The notes beneath the pieces were generated by a model that saw only the letters and a list, made by a program, of their open reading frames with translations, had not been told where the DNA came from and made no database searches. Shown in pieces: positions 20,287-61,724 of a stretch of DNA of 64,000 nucleotides. Both the position numbers and the translations under genes were made by a program. The DNA is taken from the IMG/VR virus record IMGVR_UViG_3300025133_000033; one strand, given 5' to 3'. Numbering within the stretch: position 1 is the stretch's first letter; every line of letters begins with the position of its first letter. The DNA is from a virus.

Positions 20287-20591
20287 TGGTGGAGCCGGGG
20301 GGGATTCGAACCCCCCGTCCCTAATTGTTTTCAATAAAGCGTCTACGTGTTTGTGTCGAGCTAAGCCCTGCACGACCAAGGGGCAGGATAGTTTAATGAC
20401 CTCTTACAGTCCAGCTTCAAAACAGGTATCTAGCTTTGGTTAACAGGGTGCTAGATAACCCCTACTGCTTACGCAGCTAAAGCAAAGTTTTCGTTTGCAA
20501 TTAAATGTTAGTCAATTTTTTAGGTAGCCCTTTGACCAACTACCACACGCAACTTTACATCCGTCCAATAGGTCGAAACCAAGTCGGCCCC
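20287..20591 (-). ncRNA. ssrA: tmRNA with tag (A)ANENFALAA
   Basis: 5' GGGGCCGACTTGGTTTCGAC; 3' GTTCGAATCCCCCCCGGCTCCACCA; tag ORF at 20469-20498. Confidence 0.96.
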
Positions 20592-55330: not shown

Positions 55331-55354
55331 AGCTTTTCTCTATTAAAAGTAAAG

Positions 55355-55436
55355 TGTGCCGAGAGGGATTCGAACCCCCAACGTTTCTTTGTAACTGATT
55401 TACAGTCAGCGTGCTTCACCATTTGCATATCGACAC
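55355..55436 (-). tRNA. tRNA-Tyr(GTA)
   Basis: Loop CTGTAAA; long variable arm. Confidence 0.9.
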
Positions 55437-55444
55437 ATACTAAG

Positions 55445-55516
55445 TAGGACTGGAAGGAATTGAACCTTCAAGGCCAGCCTTATAAGAGCTAGTGGAGTAC
55501 CATCTCGCTCAGTCCC
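55445..55516 (-). tRNA. tRNA-Ile(TAT)
   Basis: Loop CTTATAA; GGGACTG/CAGTCCT acceptor stem; A73. Confidence 0.75.
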
Positions 55517-55521
55517 ATAAG

Positions 55522-55593
55522 CTGACCCCCTGCGATTTGAACGCAGAATACGAGGACCAAAACCTCGTGTGTTACCTGTTACACCAAGGGCCA
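55522..55593 (-). tRNA. tRNA-Gln(TTG)
   Basis: Loop TTTTGGT; U1:A72, G73. Confidence 0.88.
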
Positions 55594-55606
55594 ATAAAAA
55601 GCCTAG

Positions 55607-55679
55607 TATCGCGGACGGGAATTGAACCCGCATAGCCCAGCTTGAAAGGCTGAGTGCCTAACCAATACAGCACCGCGAC
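55607..55679 (-). tRNA. tRNA-Glu(TTC)
   Basis: Loop CTTTCAA. Confidence 0.85.
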
Positions 55680-55688
55680 ATATATAAG

Positions 55689-55802
55689 TCTACCCTGCGG
55701 GAATCGAACCCGCTTGCGTTTCACACTCTTACGCCTTATGTTTCGAACCACTCAACTTATCGAGCCTAGCTAGTTACGCACGCCACCACGGTTCAAGAGC
55801 AG
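55689..55802 (-). ncRNA. tRNA-like RNA with expanded anticodon region
   Basis: CTGCTCT/AGGGTAG acceptor stem and perfect T arm; TGCGT/ACGCA stem encloses ~55 nt. Confidence 0.5.
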
Positions 55803-55871
55803 ATAAAAAGTGACTCGTAAAAGAATCAGTGGGAGAAGCAAGAGGGGCTTTGTACCCTCTCCGGTCTACCA

Positions 55872-56060
55872 ATGATACTTCCTCATTCAAGTTCTTCTCA
55901 TTCTAATACTAACGATCCTTGTCTCGCCAGCATTGATCGTATCAATCCTAATAAAGGGTATATAACTGATAACATTCAATGGGTTTGCTTAATAGGTCAG
56001 TATTGTAAAAATATATACTCTATGGAAGATGTAATTAAATTTTGCAATGCTGTAAGCAAA
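55872..56060 (+). pseudogene. Inverted HNH endonuclease relic
   Basis: ASIDRINPNKGYITDNIQWVC..KN..EDVIKFCNAV, homologous to the C-terminal half of 19714-20232. Confidence 0.75.
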
Positions 56061-56061
56061 G

Positions 56062-56135
56062 GGGCTGGAGGAGGATTTGAACCTCCAAACACTTGATTTA
56101 ATACAAGCCGCTTTGATCTATTAGCGTACCCAGCC
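56062..56135 (-). tRNA. Degenerate tRNA with 8-nt anticodon loop, identity undetermined
   Basis: Acceptor and T arms intact; loop TATTAAAT. Confidence 0.5.
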
Positions 56136-56145
56136 AAAATAAAAG

Positions 56146-56214
56146 CAGCGAGCGATGGACTTGAACCACCATATCCTGTGCCCAGGCAGCATTAGACTTA
56201 TGCCGAACTCGCTG
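56146..56214 (-). pseudogene. Degenerate tRNA-like element
   Basis: CAGCGAG/CTCGCTG stem and T arm; shortened anticodon arm. Confidence 0.5.
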
Positions 56215-56276
56215 TAAATTAAGATAAGTGTTTATGGGTTTTCCACTATAGTTGACCCTTTATTTTTTTTTCTGAG

Positions 56277-56351
56277 TGGTACGAGGAGGATTTGAACCCC
56301 CGACAACCGAACGCTTCAAGATCGTGCTCTACCAAGCTGAGCTATCGTACC
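56277..56351 (-). tRNA. tRNA-Phe(GAA)
   Basis: Loop TTGAAGC; canonical D arm. Confidence 0.85.
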
Positions 56352-57674: not shown

Positions 57675-58520
57675 TTAAGTAGCGTGGATTTCATCGCAGT
57701 CATAAATTCTATACTCACATACCCCAATACCTGAAGGATTAGGAAATCCTCTTCTATTGTTTGCGATTTGCATATTTATCTCATGACTGCGATGCCTATT
57801 CTTTTCTTTATAATGTTCAGTCCTTAACTCTTCATGATGATTCATTGACGAAATCAAGGGATGCCCCTCGATTTGATGGATAATATACAACTGATTCAAT
57901 CTCACGTACATATCGTTGTCTTCCCATCCCCATCCCTCCATTAGCTCGTCATACCCTCTTACCGCTAAAAAGGCAGTCATGGTCATAGCCATAGCACATT
58001 TACCCGACATTAAAACATCTTTGATATGATTAATGGCAGATATATCTGTAGCTCTCTCTCCCTCGCTATAAATAGCTTCTCCTGCCGCATACATAGTGCC
58101 TCCAAGACCATACTTAGAGCAATACCAGTCTACAGGATTAACTACGTGTGCTCTATCGTATCGTATAGGCTTAGTAATATTATACAGCCAAAGAGGTTCT
58201 ACTAATGTATCGGCATCTGAAAAGTTAATGATATTAGCATCTGCCAACATAACCCCACAATTCCTTGCCCTAGACAAGTTAAAGTAATCGGTTTTATCCT
58301 CTACTTTTATTACTCGTAAATTGGGCAAGGGATTGCGATGGAAATATTCAAATGTACCGTCAGGACAACCATAATCTACAAGCACCACTCTATAGGTAAA
58401 TGTATCCCTAGTGTCTTGGCTGCACATTTTCGGCAGCGTATCTTTAAGGTAGTCCAGTCTACCTTTACACGTAACAACAATAGCTACATCTTTAGTAGGC
58501 TCGGGCGTATTTGACTCCAT
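57675..58520 (-). CDS. GT2/GT7C glycosyltransferase, copy 1
   Basis: Same motifs as copy 2; DAD. Confidence 0.88.
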   Translation of the reverse strand: MESNTPEPTKDVAIVVTCKGRLDYLKDTLPKMCSQDTRDTFTYRVVLVDYGCPDGTFEYFHRNPLPNLRVIKVEDKTDYFNLSRARNCGVMLADANIINFSDADTLVEPLWLYNITKPIRYDRAHVVNPVDWYCSKYGLGGTMYAAGEAIYSEGERATDISAINHIKDVLMSGKCAMAMTMTAFLAVRGYDELMEGWGWEDNDMYVRLNQLYIIHQIEGHPLISSMNHHEELRTEHYKEKNRHRSHEINMQIANNRRGFPNPSGIGVCEYRIYDCDEIHAT

Positions 58521-60304
58521 TAAGCTACCGCCAATTCAGGTTGAGCCTCAAATAGCTTGGTAAAGGTATCCTTTTCCAATTTATCCAGAGACAGATCAAC
58601 ATCTGCTTCATCAGCTTCGTCAACAAACTGAACACCCAGATCCAACAGTAGCTCGTTAAAGCTAAGAGGATTAGACCATTGCTGGTATAGTGCATTGATA
58701 GCTTGCTGTGGGTTACGACCAGACACTCTCGCGTGACCTGCACCAAAATTCAATAGCACAAAGGCATGTTGCTTTACACCTCCAAGCTTAGGAGGCAGTA
58801 ACATTCCAACTACAGTTTGTTTTTGTACAGAATTACACTTAACTTCCATAAACAGGTTGTTAGGGTTCATCATGTACTTCATATTAATACGATCTCCACG
58901 ACCGACAATGATCTTGTAGCCCGCATCAGGATTACCGCTATACACGTTATTCATGATCAGGTATGCCTGAGACAAACCCTCCGATGAATATAGGTATTCT
59001 ACCGCACCATCTGGAGCATTAGTAATATCTCCAGAATACGCTAGAACATCATCGCTATAGCTAGAGTTCCATCCAATCTTACCTCCCTGAACATCCAATG
59101 CCGACAGGTCATGATCGTTAGCACCCCAATCATTACGCCAGTATACTCCGCAGGCCAATCTCTCACCATAGAACTTAGTTCCAGTTGGGACATTTCCCAC
59201 GAACATCTTTTCAGATGTAGGTATAGCATACTCTACGTCACGAGGCAATAAGACCTTAGTACCAGTCAAATCGAATCTCAGCTTAAGGTAATCGTACAGA
59301 ATACCAAAGTTAGTCACAGGAATAACAACCGAACTAGTTGCTTTGTCTGCAATCCAACTCTTACCATTTCTAATTCTGTAAACAAAATCAGTCTGGCGAC
59401 CCATACGATTATAGCACGCAGTAAGTGCCTTGAACAACGCAAACGGAGTCGCATTGTCCAACCAGTGTCTATCTGCATCTGTCAGCTTACGCTGAGTTAC
59501 CAAGTTCAGAGGGTTAGTCACAAGAGGCTTATGGTTGCTCTTGGACAGCTTACTGATCTTGTTAATTACTTTAGGACATTGACCCTTGAACGCTAGGAAT
59601 AAAGGCTTAAATCTATTGAAGATTTCCGCCAGCTTACCAAGACCAAAGCTTTTTAGTTGAGCCGCAGGATTAAAGTTAGTATCTTTAATCTTAGCGATCA
59701 TCTCTGGACTCTTAATCAGCAGGGACTCTCCAGTCGCTCTGAAGAGAATGTAACGAAAAAACTCCATTGTATCTGTAGGTAAGATACCATACATATCGGC
59801 AATCTTAATGATAGCCTCCTTGTTCTTGATACCTTCCTTGCCAGTAAACGAGTAGTCTAGCTCGTCAACAAGCACCGACAGTACGTCGTTAATTGTTTCT
59901 TCTGTTAAAGCAATACCGCTTTGCAACATACCAAGACACTTCTTAGTCATCGCAGTCTTGCAGTACGATTTAATAACCGTATACTTTAACTCCAGACCAG
60001 GAACCTCAAGTTCCTCGTCAGGGATGTATATTTCTCCCTTAAGGTCAGTACCATAGGTAGACAGATAGTGTCTGATCTGCTCGACCAACAACTCGTAACG
60101 AGACGAGCTGATCACCTTCTCCCATGACTTATGGAAGGTTTTGTTCAGATCATTACCGCTCAGCTTTTGCTCAGCATAAAATGCTACAATATTATCCTTA
60201 GCCCACATAGCATCAGACTGGATAACATACCCTTCGTCAGATACGAATACTTCTGCCTTAGATGGCTTAGCAATAACAGCATTAAACAACTTCAGTGTCT
60301 TCAT
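58520..60304 (-). CDS. Large helical protein with C-terminal TerD-like domain (594 aa)
   Basis: GVYW..DHDLSAL..IGWNS..YSGDITNAPDGAVEYL; start reassigned to MKTLKLF. Confidence 0.65.
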   Translation of the reverse strand: MKTLKLFNAVIAKPSKAEVFVSDEGYVIQSDAMWAKDNIVAFYAEQKLSGNDLNKTFHKSWEKVISSSRYELLVEQIRHYLSTYGTDLKGEIYIPDEELEVPGLELKYTVIKSYCKTAMTKKCLGMLQSGIALTEETINDVLSVLVDELDYSFTGKEGIKNKEAIIKIADMYGILPTDTMEFFRYILFRATGESLLIKSPEMIAKIKDTNFNPAAQLKSFGLGKLAEIFNRFKPLFLAFKGQCPKVINKISKLSKSNHKPLVTNPLNLVTQRKLTDADRHWLDNATPFALFKALTACYNRMGRQTDFVYRIRNGKSWIADKATSSVVIPVTNFGILYDYLKLRFDLTGTKVLLPRDVEYAIPTSEKMFVGNVPTGTKFYGERLACGVYWRNDWGANDHDLSALDVQGGKIGWNSSYSDDVLAYSGDITNAPDGAVEYLYSSEGLSQAYLIMNNVYSGNPDAGYKIIVGRGDRINMKYMMNPNNLFMEVKCNSVQKQTVVGMLLPPKLGGVKQHAFVLLNFGAGHARVSGRNPQQAINALYQQWSNPLSFNELLLDLGVQFVDEADEADVDLSLDKLEKDTFTKLFEAQPELAVA

Positions 60305-60326
60305 GATCCTGGTCCTCGATAAAAAA

Positions 60327-60713
60327 GGTGGAGAGTAAAGTTTGGCAGGCCCGTTCCCCGAGGGGTGGGCCAATCAGTGAAAATAGGAACTCTCGTTACC
60401 CGTTCGTTTCCTTGTTTTATTAAAGTGATGGAGAGTAAATTAAGGCGGGGTTACCGCCAGTTTTCATAGATAGGAACTCTCTTTACCACTCCTTCAATTG
60501 TACTATTTGTTTCGTATAAAGCAACCCCTAAAAATAAAAAGATGGAGAGTAAAATCTGACATATATATAGGAACTCTCTTTATCTTTTGTTGTTTTAGAA
60601 AGGCGGGAAGTAAGGATTCGCCATTGAAAAGAATAGGAACTTCCGGTGCCCATTGGTTAAAAAGGCGGGGGATAAGGTACTTACAATAGTTATATATAGG
60701 AATCCCCGTTGCC
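60327..60713 (-). repeat. Array of five covarying RNA hairpin units
   Basis: Units at 60327-60400, 60425-60489, 60541-60584, 60602-60650 and 60664-60713; invariant TAA...ATAGGAA on the + strand. Confidence 0.85.
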
Positions 60714-60884
60714 GTTATACTCTACGACTCGTTGGTTGGTTGTGATTCTCTTAACTCTTCCAACCATTGCATAAGCTTTTCTACCTTTTCTTCTGTAGTC
60801 TCTTCTTTTTTAGTTGACATTAGCCTTCACTTTTGCCTCCACCTTGATTTCAGTGATGCATGTAAAACTTATCCAAAAAATGAG

Positions 60885-60959
60885 CGACCCCAACCGGAAT
60901 CGAACCGGCAACCTCTAGATCGACAGTCTAGTGCTCTAACCTGATTGAGCTATGAGGCC
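60885..60959 (-). tRNA. tRNA-Asp(GTC)
   Basis: Loop CTGTCGA. Confidence 0.9.
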
Positions 60960-61115
60960 AAATTATTAGTGGAAGTAAAAATCGCTTACAACTTCTTCTT
61001 CTACATACTTCTTTATATATATACGCTAGGATGAACCAACTTGTTAGGTATCTCATACATAAGACAAAAAGCCCTATGCCTAGCGTAAGTCTCAAAATAT
61101 AACTCCAATATTTCT

Positions 61116-61388
61116 TTAGTCAACATAAGGCTCTGCCACTGTAATACACTTTGATGTATCTTCGTAACTTGAACCAGCAGTCATCGCACCAGGACTCTCA
61201 ACGCCACTATAGTAGTAACTTTGATTGATGCTACTAATACCCTGTGACACATTCTCAAACTCATTAATGACAGCAGTACGAACACTGTTCAAACCAGTCA
61301 CCAAACCTGCGACTAGAATACCACTCACCATAATATATTCAGCGGATATGATGCCGCCAATTTCATCAGCCCATAGTTTTCTCAACAT
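61116..61388 (-). CDS. Flp (type IVb) pilin-like protein
   Basis: LWADEIGGIISAEY followed by a hydrophobic helix; INQSY. Confidence 0.75.
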   Translation of the reverse strand: MLRKLWADEIGGIISAEYIMVSGILVAGLVTGLNSVRTAVINEFENVSQGISSINQSYYYSGVESPGAMTAGSSYEDTSKCITVAEPYVD

Positions 61389-61427
61389 AATTGATCTCCT
61401 ATTTTCATAAAATTTACCCTTTATAAG

Positions 61428-61501
61428 TCTGGATGAAAGGAGTTGAACCTTCGACCCCTTGGTCCCAAACCAAGTGCTCTACCAAGCTGAGCTACATCCA
61501 G
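61428..61501 (-). tRNA. tRNA-Pro(TGG)
   Basis: Loop TTTGGGA. Confidence 0.92.
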
Positions 61502-61506
61502 TCAAG

Positions 61507-61580
61507 CATGTGCGGCAGGAATCGAACCTGCAACCGGCAGTTTTGGAGACTACTGCTCTCCCTAATTGAGCTACGCACAT
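61507..61580 (-). tRNA. tRNA-Trp(CCA)
   Basis: Loop CTCCAAA. Confidence 0.9.
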
Positions 61581-61652
61581 ATACAACAGCTTATTCTACA
61601 CCAACTGTACCATCCGATGTACCGTTTGTCAGCATTTAAATTCCAAAAAAAG

Positions 61653-61724
61653 TAGGGACAGAAGGATTCGAACCCTCAATGTCTGGTTAGAAGCCAGAAG
61701 TGATTTCCATTTCACCATGTCCCC
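61653..61724 (-). tRNA. tRNA-Arg(TCT)
   Basis: Loop CTTCTAA. Confidence 0.9.

What the first reader, a model, noticed from the sequence alone, without database searches (positions are those of the whole stretch)
58520..60713. Five-unit covarying RNA array feeding a large TerD-like protein: candidate RNP system
Seen: five units whose sense-strand form is GRY-A-NN-[stem]-UCCUAU-[variable ~10-45 nt]-UU-[stem']-C-RYC-U-tract. Stems covary (GAGAGU/ACUCUC three times, GGAAGU/ACUUCC, GGGGAU/AUCCCC) while the loop flanks are invariant, so structure rather than DNA sequence is conserved. The last unit ends ~22 nt before a 594 aa gene with a long helical region and a TerD-like C-terminus, which is coupled to the duplicated glycosyltransferases. 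It is not a CRISPR array (unequal inserts, no cas genes). Established: Ter-domain genes co-occur with RNA-binding and repair modules such as Ro/TROVE. Inference: small RNAs that bind this protein, either as Y-RNA-like or guide-like partners, or as tandem autoregulatory sites.
Basis: partly seen in the sequence, partly recalled or inferred. Interest (0 to 1): 0.85.

Follow-up and report, generated by a model that had tools for sequence, protein, structure and literature searches.

The report
Y-RNA-like array with TerD-fold partner
Five small folded RNAs that share one conserved stem ("handle") sit directly in front of an uncharacterised phage protein, and because the same RNA-protein pair recurs in most related phage loci and all sampled Bacteroidota loci, next to tRNA genes or the RNA ligase RtcB, it looks like an undescribed counterpart of the Ro60/Y-RNA particle.

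Summary
Five units lie at 60327-60713 on the minus strand. Each has a 3-bp outer stem, a 3-nt bulge, a 6-bp covarying stem, UCCUAU, a 14-44-nt variable insert and WU, then the stem partners with a single bulged C. A covariance model finds exactly these five in 64 kb. The array ends 22 nt before a 594-aa gene.

The same motif flanks homologues of this gene, on the gene's strand, in 33 of 38 phage loci and 20 of 20 sampled Bacteroidota loci. Across 141 copies, 98.9% of cells pair and 8 of 9 pairs show compensatory changes. G-U pairs fit only the sense strand. In the reverse test, 25 of 29 motif-bearing phage stretches carry the gene.

In relatives the insert is sometimes a complete tRNA-like module. 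One such unit matches Rfam YrlA below threshold. Units also sit inside tRNA arrays, 3-6 nt from tRNAs. In bacteria RtcB and a WYL regulator usually lie directly upstream.

The protein has an N-terminal helical domain with no detectable relative and a C-terminal TerD fold. No TROVE homology was detected.

Best reading: an RNA-protein particle analogous to Ro60/Y RNA, built from unrelated parts. Binding and function are inferred, not shown. No paper or Rfam family describing it was found. This scan has flagged the same pair before on other genomes.

The parts
60664..60713 (-). Unit 1: handle GGC/AAC/GGGGAU ... AUCCCC/C/GCC with a 20-nt insert
   Evidence: covariance model 47.4 bits, E 9e-11
60602..60650 (-). 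Unit 2: handle GGC/ACC/GGAAGU ... ACUUCC/C/GCC; the 19-nt insert contains AAUGGCGAA
   Evidence: 40.9 bits, E 6e-9
60541..60584 (-). Unit 3: handle GAU/AAA/GAGAGU ... ACUCUC/C/AUC; shortest insert (14 nt)
   Evidence: 47.5 bits, E 8.5e-11
60427..60487 (-). Unit 4: handle GGU/AAA/GAGAGU ... ACUCUC/C/AUC, where the outer stem has a G-U pair possible only on this strand; the insert holds a GC hairpin (GGCGG/CCGCC)
   Evidence: not in the model's training set, found at 31.1 bits, E 4e-6
60327..60400 (-). Unit 5, gene-proximal: handle GGU/AAC/GAGAGU ... ACUCUC/C/ACC followed by U6; the 44-nt insert holds a GC-rich hairpin. It ends 22 nt before the ATG, so there is no room for a separate promoter
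   Evidence: not in the training set, 33.8 bits, E 7e-7. The GGU...ACY + U-tract subtype is conserved as the last unit in relatives
58520..60304 (-). Gene for the 594-aa partner protein (P0001)
   Evidence: more than 1300 cluster representatives; AF2 model pLDDT 92.3
59270..60304 (-). N-terminal, mostly helical domain (about residues 1-345). Invariant N161, E163, N248, H258, R312, plus conserved basic motifs FNRFKP and SKLSK..HKP. No detectable relative of known fold
   Evidence: best Z 5.4 over 74 residues
58688..59170 (-). C-terminal TerD-fold beta-sandwich (about residues 379-539) with invariant D397, D399, G425, D426, E436
   Evidence: VIA Z 9.8 to 2qz7_B (143 aligned, rmsd 3.1) and Z 8.6 to 2kxt; Foldseek probability 1.00 to 2qng, 3ibz, 2qz7; invariant columns
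60884..60959 (-). tRNA-Asp(GUC) just upstream on the same strand. The array lies between two tRNA clusters (55354-56351 and 60884-61724)
60722..60820 (-). 32-codon ORF between tRNA-Asp and unit 1; status unknown
   Evidence: Read; called as a gene in two near-identical contigs; no family match
57675..58520 (-). GT2 glycosyltransferase, translationally coupled (TAATG) to the partner gene. Lineage-specific neighbour, not part of the conserved module
   Evidence: absent next to homologues in L008 and L009

Best explanation
The array encodes five small RNAs, or one precursor that is cut into them. All share a protein-binding handle: a 3-bp stem, a 3-nt bulge opposite one bulged C, a 6-bp stem, and a junction of UUCCUAU on the 5' side and WU on the 3' side. 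Each carries a different cargo loop. The 594-aa helical + TerD-fold protein encoded 22 nt downstream is their partner. Together they would form an RNA-protein particle that works like Ro60 with its Y RNAs, as a scaffold acting on tRNAs or damaged RNA. In this phage that would mean during infection, alongside its 25 tRNAs and tmRNA, possibly to blunt host attacks on tRNA.

Shown here: the RNA structure (by covariation), the strand, the linkage to the gene in both directions, the tRNA-mimic inserts in relatives, and the tRNA-array and RtcB contexts.

Inferred: transcription and processing, physical binding, and the biological role. Because the last handle always sits 15-35 nt before the start codon, the mRNA probably carries handles in its leader. 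Feedback control of the protein's own synthesis is therefore a likely second role.
For: (1) Structure. In 141 distinct model hits, 98.9% of cells pair, 8 of 9 pairs show changes on both sides (348 cells), and 0 of 500 shuffles reach the observed value; slid controls pair at 36-53%. There are 31 G-U pairs at the first outer pair, and U4's outer extension has three more. These would be mismatches on the other strand.
(2) Linkage. There are 94 hits in 33 of 38 phage loci, all on the gene's strand, and 57 hits in 20 of 20 sampled bacterial loci, where the last unit ends 15-22 nt before the start. In the reverse test, 22 of 29 motif-bearing IMG/VR stretches have the gene adjacent on the same strand, and 3 more have it elsewhere on the contig. 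The pairing holds down to 28-35% protein identity: S-CRM01, S-CBWM1 and Phass-1.
(3) Independent RNA genes. In L072 the units sit inside a tRNA array, 3-6 nt from the flanking tRNAs. Some units lie downstream of the gene.
(4) tRNA mimicry. Inserts of 86-92 nt in L001, L030 and L010 hold a T-arm, a closed acceptor-like stem and a D-arm. L001 4619-4733 aligns to the whole Rfam YrlA model (35.9 bits, E 9e-7). In L085 and L090 the circular permutation occurs: a tRNA whose anticodon arm is replaced by the handle.
(5) Context. RtcB lies directly upstream and co-oriented in 57 of 80 bacterial loci, with a WYL regulator in 53. Among phage loci, 23 of 43 have tRNAs within the flanks.
(6) The handle is specific to this protein. 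A true Ro60 gene in the same Chryseobacterium genome has no handle RNA nearby.
Against: No experiment or structure prediction shows that the protein binds RNA. The N-terminal domain has no recognisable RNA-binding fold. Two phage loci (L019, L024) have the gene with its own promoter-like sequence and no array within 3 kb. One 37-kb contig rated 99% complete (L052) has a single bona fide handle RNA but no such protein. None of the five inserts in this window is tRNA-like. The bacterial counts are dominated by Chryseobacterium species and are not independent. The RNA-repair role rests on gene neighbourhood alone.
Confidence: 0.6

Rival explanations
1. The units are purely cis-acting leader elements: tandem operator or attenuator sites in the 5' untranslated region that control translation or read-through into the 594-aa gene. 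They would have no life as separate RNAs.
For: The last unit always ends 15-35 nt before the start codon, and in this clade it is followed by a U-tract. There is no room for a promoter between the array and the gene.
Against: Units occur inside tRNA arrays 3-6 nt from tRNAs with no such gene in the 7-kb stretch held or found on that partial contig (L072). They also occur downstream of the gene (L001, L010, L034, L040, L042), 1.3 kb away in Phass-1, and in a phage without the gene (L052). Inserts can be whole tRNA mimics, which a simple operator does not need.
Confidence: 0.12
2. The protein is an enzyme and the RNAs are its substrates. For example, it could be an endoribonuclease that recognises the handle and cuts the array into units (as Cas6 does for CRISPR repeats), or a modifying or repair enzyme acting on the UUCCUAU junction.
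For: The N-terminal domain has invariant polar residues (N161, E163, N248, H258, R312, K366). Tandem units need some means of separation. The linkage evidence is the same as for the main explanation.
Against: There is no similarity to any nuclease or nucleotidyltransferase fold. Units embedded between tRNAs would already be released by RNase P and the tRNA 3'-end processing enzymes (the processing step is inferred).
Confidence: 0.13
3. The variable inserts act as guides. The protein-RNA complex would then find nucleic-acid targets by base pairing, like a CRISPR or other RNA-guided system.
For: The design is a constant handle plus a variable loop, in an array format.
Against: The inserts are short, AU-rich or self-folded. 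None is complementary to anything else in the window beyond chance: one 11-mer was found against 0.6 expected. Some inserts are tRNA mimics. The protein matches no PADLOC or Cas family. The variable part lies inside the hairpin, not between repeats.
Confidence: 0.04
4. The units are generic transcript-processing or terminator signals of tRNA operons, or DNA-level repeats (miniature mobile elements or recombinase sites), and are unrelated to the neighbouring protein.
For: They lie in tRNA-rich regions. U-tracts follow four of the five units here. Unit 2 contains the 13-mer GAAGTTCCTATTC, which from memory equals one arm of the yeast FRT site.
Against: The two-way linkage with one protein family spans very different phages and bacteria. 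All copies are on the gene's strand. G-U pairs and compensatory changes point to RNA. The terminator scan picks up only the small hairpin inside U4, not the units themselves. U-tracts are not conserved. There is no inverted second FRT arm, no terminal inverted repeats, no cassettes and no integrase.
Confidence: 0.05

Closest known systems
Ro60 (Rsr) with bacterial Y RNAs YrlA/YrlB, e.g. the Salmonella rsr-yrlBA-rtcBA operon and phage-encoded Ro60 (Chen et al. 2014, PMC4201824; PMC7790460; PMC12135203)
   Same: A roughly 500-600-aa protein is encoded next to one or several small RNAs. Each RNA has a basal bulged stem (the presumed protein-binding site) carrying a variable module that can be a tRNA mimic with T-arm, closed acceptor-like stem and D-arm. 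The system is found next to RtcB in bacteria and among tRNA genes in phages. One relative's unit aligns to the full Rfam YrlA model at E 9e-7.
   Different: No TROVE relation was detected for the protein by Pfam or hhalign, and the fold searches returned no Ro60 chain. It also ends in a TerD-fold beta-sandwich instead of a vWA domain. The handle differs in sequence from the GNCGAAN0-1G Rsr-binding motif. Copies come in tandem arrays of up to five or six, most with tiny non-tRNA inserts. The regulator upstream is WYL rather than RtcR. A genuine Ro60 in one of the same genomes has no handle RNA beside it.
TerD family (PF02342; e.g. Klebsiella TerD 2kxt, Streptomyces SCO6318 2qz7)
   Same: The C-terminal domain (residues about 379-539) has the TerD beta-sandwich fold (Z 9.8 and 8.6). 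It keeps invariant acidic residues in DLDLS and SGD...E motifs, which resemble TerD's calcium-binding loops (that comparison is from my own knowledge).
   Different: There is no Pfam TerD match even at E 10. The domain is fused to a 345-residue helical domain of unknown fold. The context is RNA genes, not a ter operon with TerC, TerB or TelA.
CRISPR repeat-spacer arrays processed by Cas6
   Same: A tandem array mixes constant structured elements with variable segments, next to a dedicated protein gene.
   Different: The variable segment lies inside each hairpin. The stems differ in sequence between units and covary. Unit lengths are unequal. There are no cas genes and no spacer-like matches.
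Stable non-tRNA small RNAs embedded in phage tRNA clusters (T4 species 1 and 2 RNAs; recalled from memory, not checked here)
   Same: Small structured RNAs are encoded among phage tRNA genes and are presumably released by tRNA-processing enzymes.
   Different: No sequence or structural relation was tested, and no dedicated protein partner is known for the T4 RNAs.

Membership tests
Ro60/Rsr (TROVE + vWA) | TROVE domain detectable by the Pfam model PF05731 | tested here: not met
   No Pfam hit for the window protein or any of 64 homologues at E up to 1. PF05731 searched over five genomes carrying the gene did not hit it, while it did find a true Ro60 in one of them.
Ro60/Rsr (TROVE + vWA) | Profile-level homology to a bona fide TROVE protein | tested here: not met
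   hhalign of the 64-sequence profile against the Chryseobacterium 505-aa TROVE protein gave probability 0.4%, E 0.16.
Ro60/Rsr (TROVE + vWA) | Ring of HEAT-like repeats (fold level) | tested here: inconclusive
   The N-terminal domain, folded alone (pLDDT 88), gave a best Z of 5.4 over 74 residues and no Ro60 chain among the top rows. Absence from such a list does not exclude a fold.
Ro60/Rsr (TROVE + vWA) | C-terminal vWA domain with a MIDAS site | tested here: not met
   The C-terminal domain is a TerD-type beta-sandwich (Z 9.8, 143 residues aligned).
YrlA (Rfam RF02553) | Score at or above Rfam's gathering threshold (69 bits) | tested here: not met
   No YrlA hit in window 60200-60900 even at E 10. 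The best relative (S-CRM01 unit, L001 4619-4733) scores 35.9 bits.
YrlA (Rfam RF02553) | tRNA-like module (T-arm, closed acceptor-like stem, D-arm) carried on a basal stem | tested here: inconclusive
   Met in relatives (L001 4616-4731, L030 2689-2802 and 2812-2927, L010 5555-5674), and in permuted form in L085 and L090. Not met by any of the five window units, whose inserts are 14-44 nt.
YrlA (Rfam RF02553) | 5' Rsr-binding motif GNCGAAN0-1G (PMC4201824) | tested here: not met
   The handle's 5' strand reads G-R-Y-A-H-M followed by the stem (e.g. GGCAAAG). This is similar in outline but is not the motif.
TerD (PF02342) | Match to the Pfam TerD model | tested here: not met
   No hit for the C-terminal domains of six family members at E up to 10.
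TerD (PF02342) | TerD beta-sandwich fold | tested here: met
   2qz7_B Z 9.8, rmsd 3.1, 143 aligned; 2kxt Z 8.6. Foldseek probability 1.00 to 2qng, 3ibz, 2qz7. An ESM Atlas neighbour cluster is partly annotated TerD.
CRISPR array | Near-identical direct repeats separated by unique spacers of near-constant length, with cas genes nearby | tested here: not met
   Repeat copies are 61-91% alike, spacing is 61-129 nt, and the variable part lies inside the hairpins. The adjacent protein matches no PADLOC or Pfam Cas family.
Intrinsic terminators | Short GC-rich stem, 3-8-nt loop, then a U-tract | tested here: not met
   The terminator scan reports only the small GGCGG/CCGCC hairpin inside U4. The units have loops of 22-52 nt. 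U-tracts are not conserved in relatives.

The most novel reading that the evidence does not exclude
This would be a second, independently evolved Ro/Y-type particle. A helical + TerD-fold protein would read a universal RNA handle, and phages and Bacteroidota would use that handle to display interchangeable cargo: tRNA mimics in either circular permutation, T-arm hairpins, or UUGG loops. A phage array would then be a small library of decoys or adaptors that capture tRNA-targeting host nucleases, or that recruit repair enzymes such as RtcB to damaged tRNAs. Lone handle RNAs in phages lacking the protein (L052) could hijack the host's copy of the protein.
Probability: 0.3. Interest if true: 0.9.

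Novelty: new variant of a known kind. Interest (0 to 1): 0.8.

Why it matters
Ro60 with Y RNAs is, as far as I know, the only described particle of this design, and its bacterial role is still poorly understood. Here a protein with no detectable relation to Ro60 and a new RNA family show the same logic: a bulged-stem handle, swappable modules including tRNA mimics, and placement next to RtcB or tRNA genes. The protein family has more than 1300 cluster representatives, and relatives were found in 217 of the species genomes scanned and in very different phages. That points to convergent evolution of an RNA-scaffolded tRNA or RNA surveillance device. It also gives a function lead for one of the larger uncharacterised phage protein families and for the TerD fold. 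The many natural handle variants provide ready-made compensatory mutants for binding tests. For phage biology, it adds a candidate component to the tRNA-array islands now linked to evasion of tRNA-cleaving defences.

Tried and rejected
- Rfam: no family matches the window array at gathering scores, or at E up to 10 over 60200-60900. In L085, only tRNA matched.
- Protein family searches all gave nothing: Pfam, PHROGs, NCBIfam, PADLOC, and a PDB sequence profile.
- The fold of the N-terminal domain has no convincing match, whether searched as the whole model or alone.
- TROVE homology was rejected at sequence and profile level.
- The search for related loci with the diverse alignment failed for lack of a conserved stretch, and a single protein gave one locus. 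An alignment of closer sequences worked.
- No whole genome is held for the window.
- Guide-like complementarity of the inserts: none beyond chance.
- Readings considered from the sequence and dropped:
  - Kink-turn: there are no tandem G-A pairs next to the 3-nt bulge.
  - Integron attC site: the AAC is unpaired, and there are no cassettes or integrase.
  - FRT or Flp site: only one arm is present, in one unit.
  - Sigma-70 promoter inside the unit: the spacing between TTCCTA and TTTACT varies from 14 to 44 nt.
  - Anticodon stem-loop of a tRNA-Arg(CCU) with an intron at position 37/38: short units have no D or T arms, and the base at the '37' position is not a conserved purine.
- RtcB and TROVE genes were sought in the window by tblastn and none was found.
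- The original S-CRM01 genome paper is not held.
- Five full-text searches found no paper describing this protein-RNA pair.
- Complex prediction was not used. It takes no RNA, and two copies of the protein exceed its size limit.
Full report
**What is there.**
The window is part of a large phage genome. Identical contigs of 135-145 kb are on record. The window holds 25 tRNA genes, a tmRNA, rIIB and a sigma factor. On the minus strand, between tRNA-Asp (60884-60959) and an ATG at 60304, lie five units: 60713-60664, 60650-60602, 60584-60541, 60487-60427 and 60400-60327.

Each unit has the same layout:
- a 3-bp outer stem
- a 3-nt bulge (AAC, ACC or AAA)
- a 6-bp inner stem
- UCCUAU
- a 14-44-nt insert
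- UU
- the inner-stem partner, one bulged C, and the outer-stem partner

Single-sequence folding returns this structure for all five units. The inner stems are GGGGAU, GGAAGU and GAGAGU (three times), each with an exact partner. The outer stems also covary. Unit 4's extended outer helix has three G-U pairs, which are possible only on this strand.

RRRRTTCCTAT occurs 7 times in the window against 1.04 expected, and five of those are here. A covariance model built from 52 units, not including U4 or U5, finds exactly these five in 64 kb at E 9e-11 to 4e-6. The next hit has E 2.8. No Rfam family matches. Five contigs carrying the identical protein have an identical array, so they add no information on variation.

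**The gene.**
The ORF at 58520-60304 (minus strand) encodes 594 aa. It starts 22 nt after unit 5. Its stop codon overlaps the start of a GT2 glycosyltransferase as TAATG.

The protein has no Pfam, PHROG, NCBIfam, PADLOC or PDB-sequence match. The family is nevertheless very large: 1341 representatives at 50% clustering and more than 2000 clusters at 90%.

An AlphaFold2 model is confident (pLDDT 92.3). Residues about 379-539 adopt the TerD beta-sandwich: Z 9.8 to 2qz7 and 8.6 to 2kxt, with Foldseek probability 1.00. D397, D399, G425, D426 and E436 are invariant. The Pfam TerD model does not match, so the relation is at fold level only.

The first 345 residues are mostly helical and have no convincing structural neighbour, whether searched as the whole model or alone (best Z 5.4 over 74 residues). 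A TROVE relation was tested directly and nothing was found. There is no Pfam match, and hhalign against a real Chryseobacterium Ro60 gives probability 0.4%.

**The RNA and the gene travel together.**
- Homologues at about 70% identity (L008, L009) carry five and four units in the same place, with new stem pairs such as GGGAAU/AUUCCC, GAAAGU/ACUUUC, GAGGGU/ACCCUC and AGACAU/AUGUCU.
- The T4-like cyanophage S-CRM01 (35% identity) has five units upstream and one downstream. S-CBWM1 has one just upstream of the gene and one within its tRNA array. The gut phage Phass-1 has six units about 1.3 kb downstream.
- Across IMG/VR relatives, the model gives 94 hits in 33 of 38 loci, all on the gene's strand. 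Five of the empty loci have little or no upstream sequence. Two (L019, L024) truly have the gene without an array.
- In Bacteroidota chromosomes (217 species matched), 20 of 20 sampled loci have 2-5 units. The last unit ends 15-22 nt before the start codon.
- In the reverse direction, an exact-pattern scan of IMG/VR for one common handle subtype returned 29 stretches. In 22 the gene is adjacent on the same strand, and in 3 more it lies elsewhere on the contig. Four lack it; three of those are fragments and one is a 37-kb contig rated 99% complete.
- On an alignment of 141 distinct hits, 98.9% of cells pair, 8 of 9 pairs show compensatory change (348 cells), no shuffle reaches the observed values, and slid registers pair at only 36-53%. 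That alignment is fitted to the model, so it leans towards the structure. The variety of pair types and the strand-specific G-U pairs do not depend on the fitting.

**What kind of RNA.**
Three observations argue that the units are RNA genes and not only leader elements.
1. In L072 two units sit inside a 23-tRNA array, 3-6 nt from the neighbouring tRNAs. They would be released by ordinary tRNA end processing; that step is inferred.
2. The insert is modular. Most inserts are 10-30 nt, with UUGG enriched tenfold (53 of 238 loops against 5 expected). Twenty-five of 301 distinct units carry a T-loop hairpin. Several lineages carry an 86-92-nt module with a T-arm, a closed acceptor-like stem and a D-arm (L001, L030 twice, L010). 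The S-CRM01 example aligns to the entire Rfam YrlA model at 35.9 bits, E 9e-7. That is below the 69-bit gathering score.
3. In Chryseobacterium and Pontimicrobium, a 111-114-nt RNA scored as tRNA by Rfam lies just before the array. Its anticodon arm is replaced by the handle closed with a small loop. This is the circular permutation of the previous form.

Both topologies give a tRNA-like body carrying the handle helix where the anticodon arm would be.

**Context.**
In 57 of 80 bacterial loci an RtcB RNA ligase lies directly upstream and co-oriented. In 53 a divergent WYL/WCX regulator precedes it. These loci are mostly Chryseobacterium, so the counts are not independent. Other bacterial loci, and 23 of 43 phage loci, have tRNA genes in the flanks, and 16 of the phage loci have five or more.

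The window itself has no RtcB or TROVE gene. A true Ro60 elsewhere in one Chryseobacterium genome has no handle RNA nearby. On this one example the handle goes with the TerD-fold protein and not with Ro60.

**Interpretation.**
The best-supported reading is an RNA-protein particle analogous to Ro60 with Y RNAs. In that known system a protein binds a bulged basal stem of small RNAs whose distal modules, including tRNA mimics, engage other factors, and the genes sit with RtcB or with tRNA genes (PMC4201824, PMC7790460). Here the protein is unrelated as far as tested, the handle is different, and the RNAs come in arrays.

Binding, processing and function are all inferred. The fixed short distance between the last handle and the start codon means the mRNA very likely carries handles. 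Autoregulation is therefore a plausible additional role.

Rivals:
- A cis-only leader is disfavoured by the units found in tRNA arrays, downstream of the gene, or without it.
- An enzyme-substrate relation (a processing nuclease or modifier) is not excluded.
- Guide RNAs have no support.
- Generic terminators or DNA repeats are contradicted by the two-way linkage, the strand bias and the covariation.

**Novelty.**
I found no Rfam family and no paper describing this pair in five full-text searches. The jumbo-phage survey PMC7824862 mentions TerD and TROVE only in separate contexts.

Earlier notes of this scan report the same RNA-protein pair on several other genomes with the same Ro60/Y-RNA comparison. 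I had reached that reading before consulting them. From them I took only the RtcB/WYL lead, which I then verified, and the words 'handle' and 'cargo'.

Noticed in passing
L052:7629-7674 (-), IMG/VR contig 3300032030_000211: A 37-kb phage contig rated 99% complete carries one bona fide handle RNA 23 nt upstream of an unrelated 435-aa ORF in a tail-fibre-like region (the next gene has a Peptidase_S74 chaperone domain). It has no homologue of the TerD-fold protein. The RNA might use the host's copy of the protein.
   Followed up: partly
L085:5703-5813 and L090:5642-5755: These are tRNA-scoring RNAs (Rfam RF00005, 47 and 42 bits) whose anticodon arm is replaced by the handle helix closed by a 3-4-nt loop. 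That is the circular permutation of the handle-plus-tRNA-like-insert units seen in phages.
   Followed up: partly
Short inserts of units in many loci; in the window U2 (AAUGGCGAA), U4 (ACUGGCGG), U5 (AUUGGCCC): UUGG/UGG is enriched about tenfold in short cargo loops (53 of 238 against 5 expected). UUGGA is nearly complementary to the invariant UCCUA. UGGN also resembles the tRNA 3'-end (NCCA) binding element of T-box leaders (that comparison is from memory). Its meaning is unknown.
   Followed up: partly
window 20287-20591 (-): A phage-encoded tmRNA (116.9 bits) with tag peptide ANENFALAA lies at the end of a 16-tRNA cluster. A related contig (L064) has a permuted tmRNA with tag ANESFALAA near a handle RNA.
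   Followed up: no
window 55680-55810 (-) and 56062-56135 (-): The first is a roughly 115-nt RNA-like stretch with a canonical T-arm (GCGGG UUCGAUU CCCGC) and a long closing helix, but no handle. The second is a tRNA found by Rfam (41.9 bits) but missed by ARAGORN. Both lie in the tRNA cluster downstream of the glycosyltransferases.
   Followed up: partly
L019:2900-3000 and L024: Two phage contigs have the TerD-fold gene without any handle RNA within 3 kb. L019 instead shows a Bacteroidota-type promoter-like TTG...TATATTTG just upstream of the gene.
   Followed up: partly
window 60633-60645 (-), unit 2: The 13-mer GAAGTTCCTATTC is, from memory, identical to one Flp-binding arm of the yeast FRT site. 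There is no inverted second arm, so this is taken as coincidence.
   Followed up: yes
window 60722-60820 (-): A 32-codon acidic, helix-prone ORF (MSTKKEETTEEK...) lies between tRNA-Asp and unit 1. It was called as a gene in two near-identical contigs and matches no family.
   Followed up: no
L079-L158 (genome contigs): The closest chromosomal relatives of the phage protein (about 62% identity) are in Cytophagales and Flavobacteriales (Roseivirga, Marivirga, Cyclobacteriaceae). This hints at a Bacteroidota host, or at gene exchange with that phylum.
   Followed up: no
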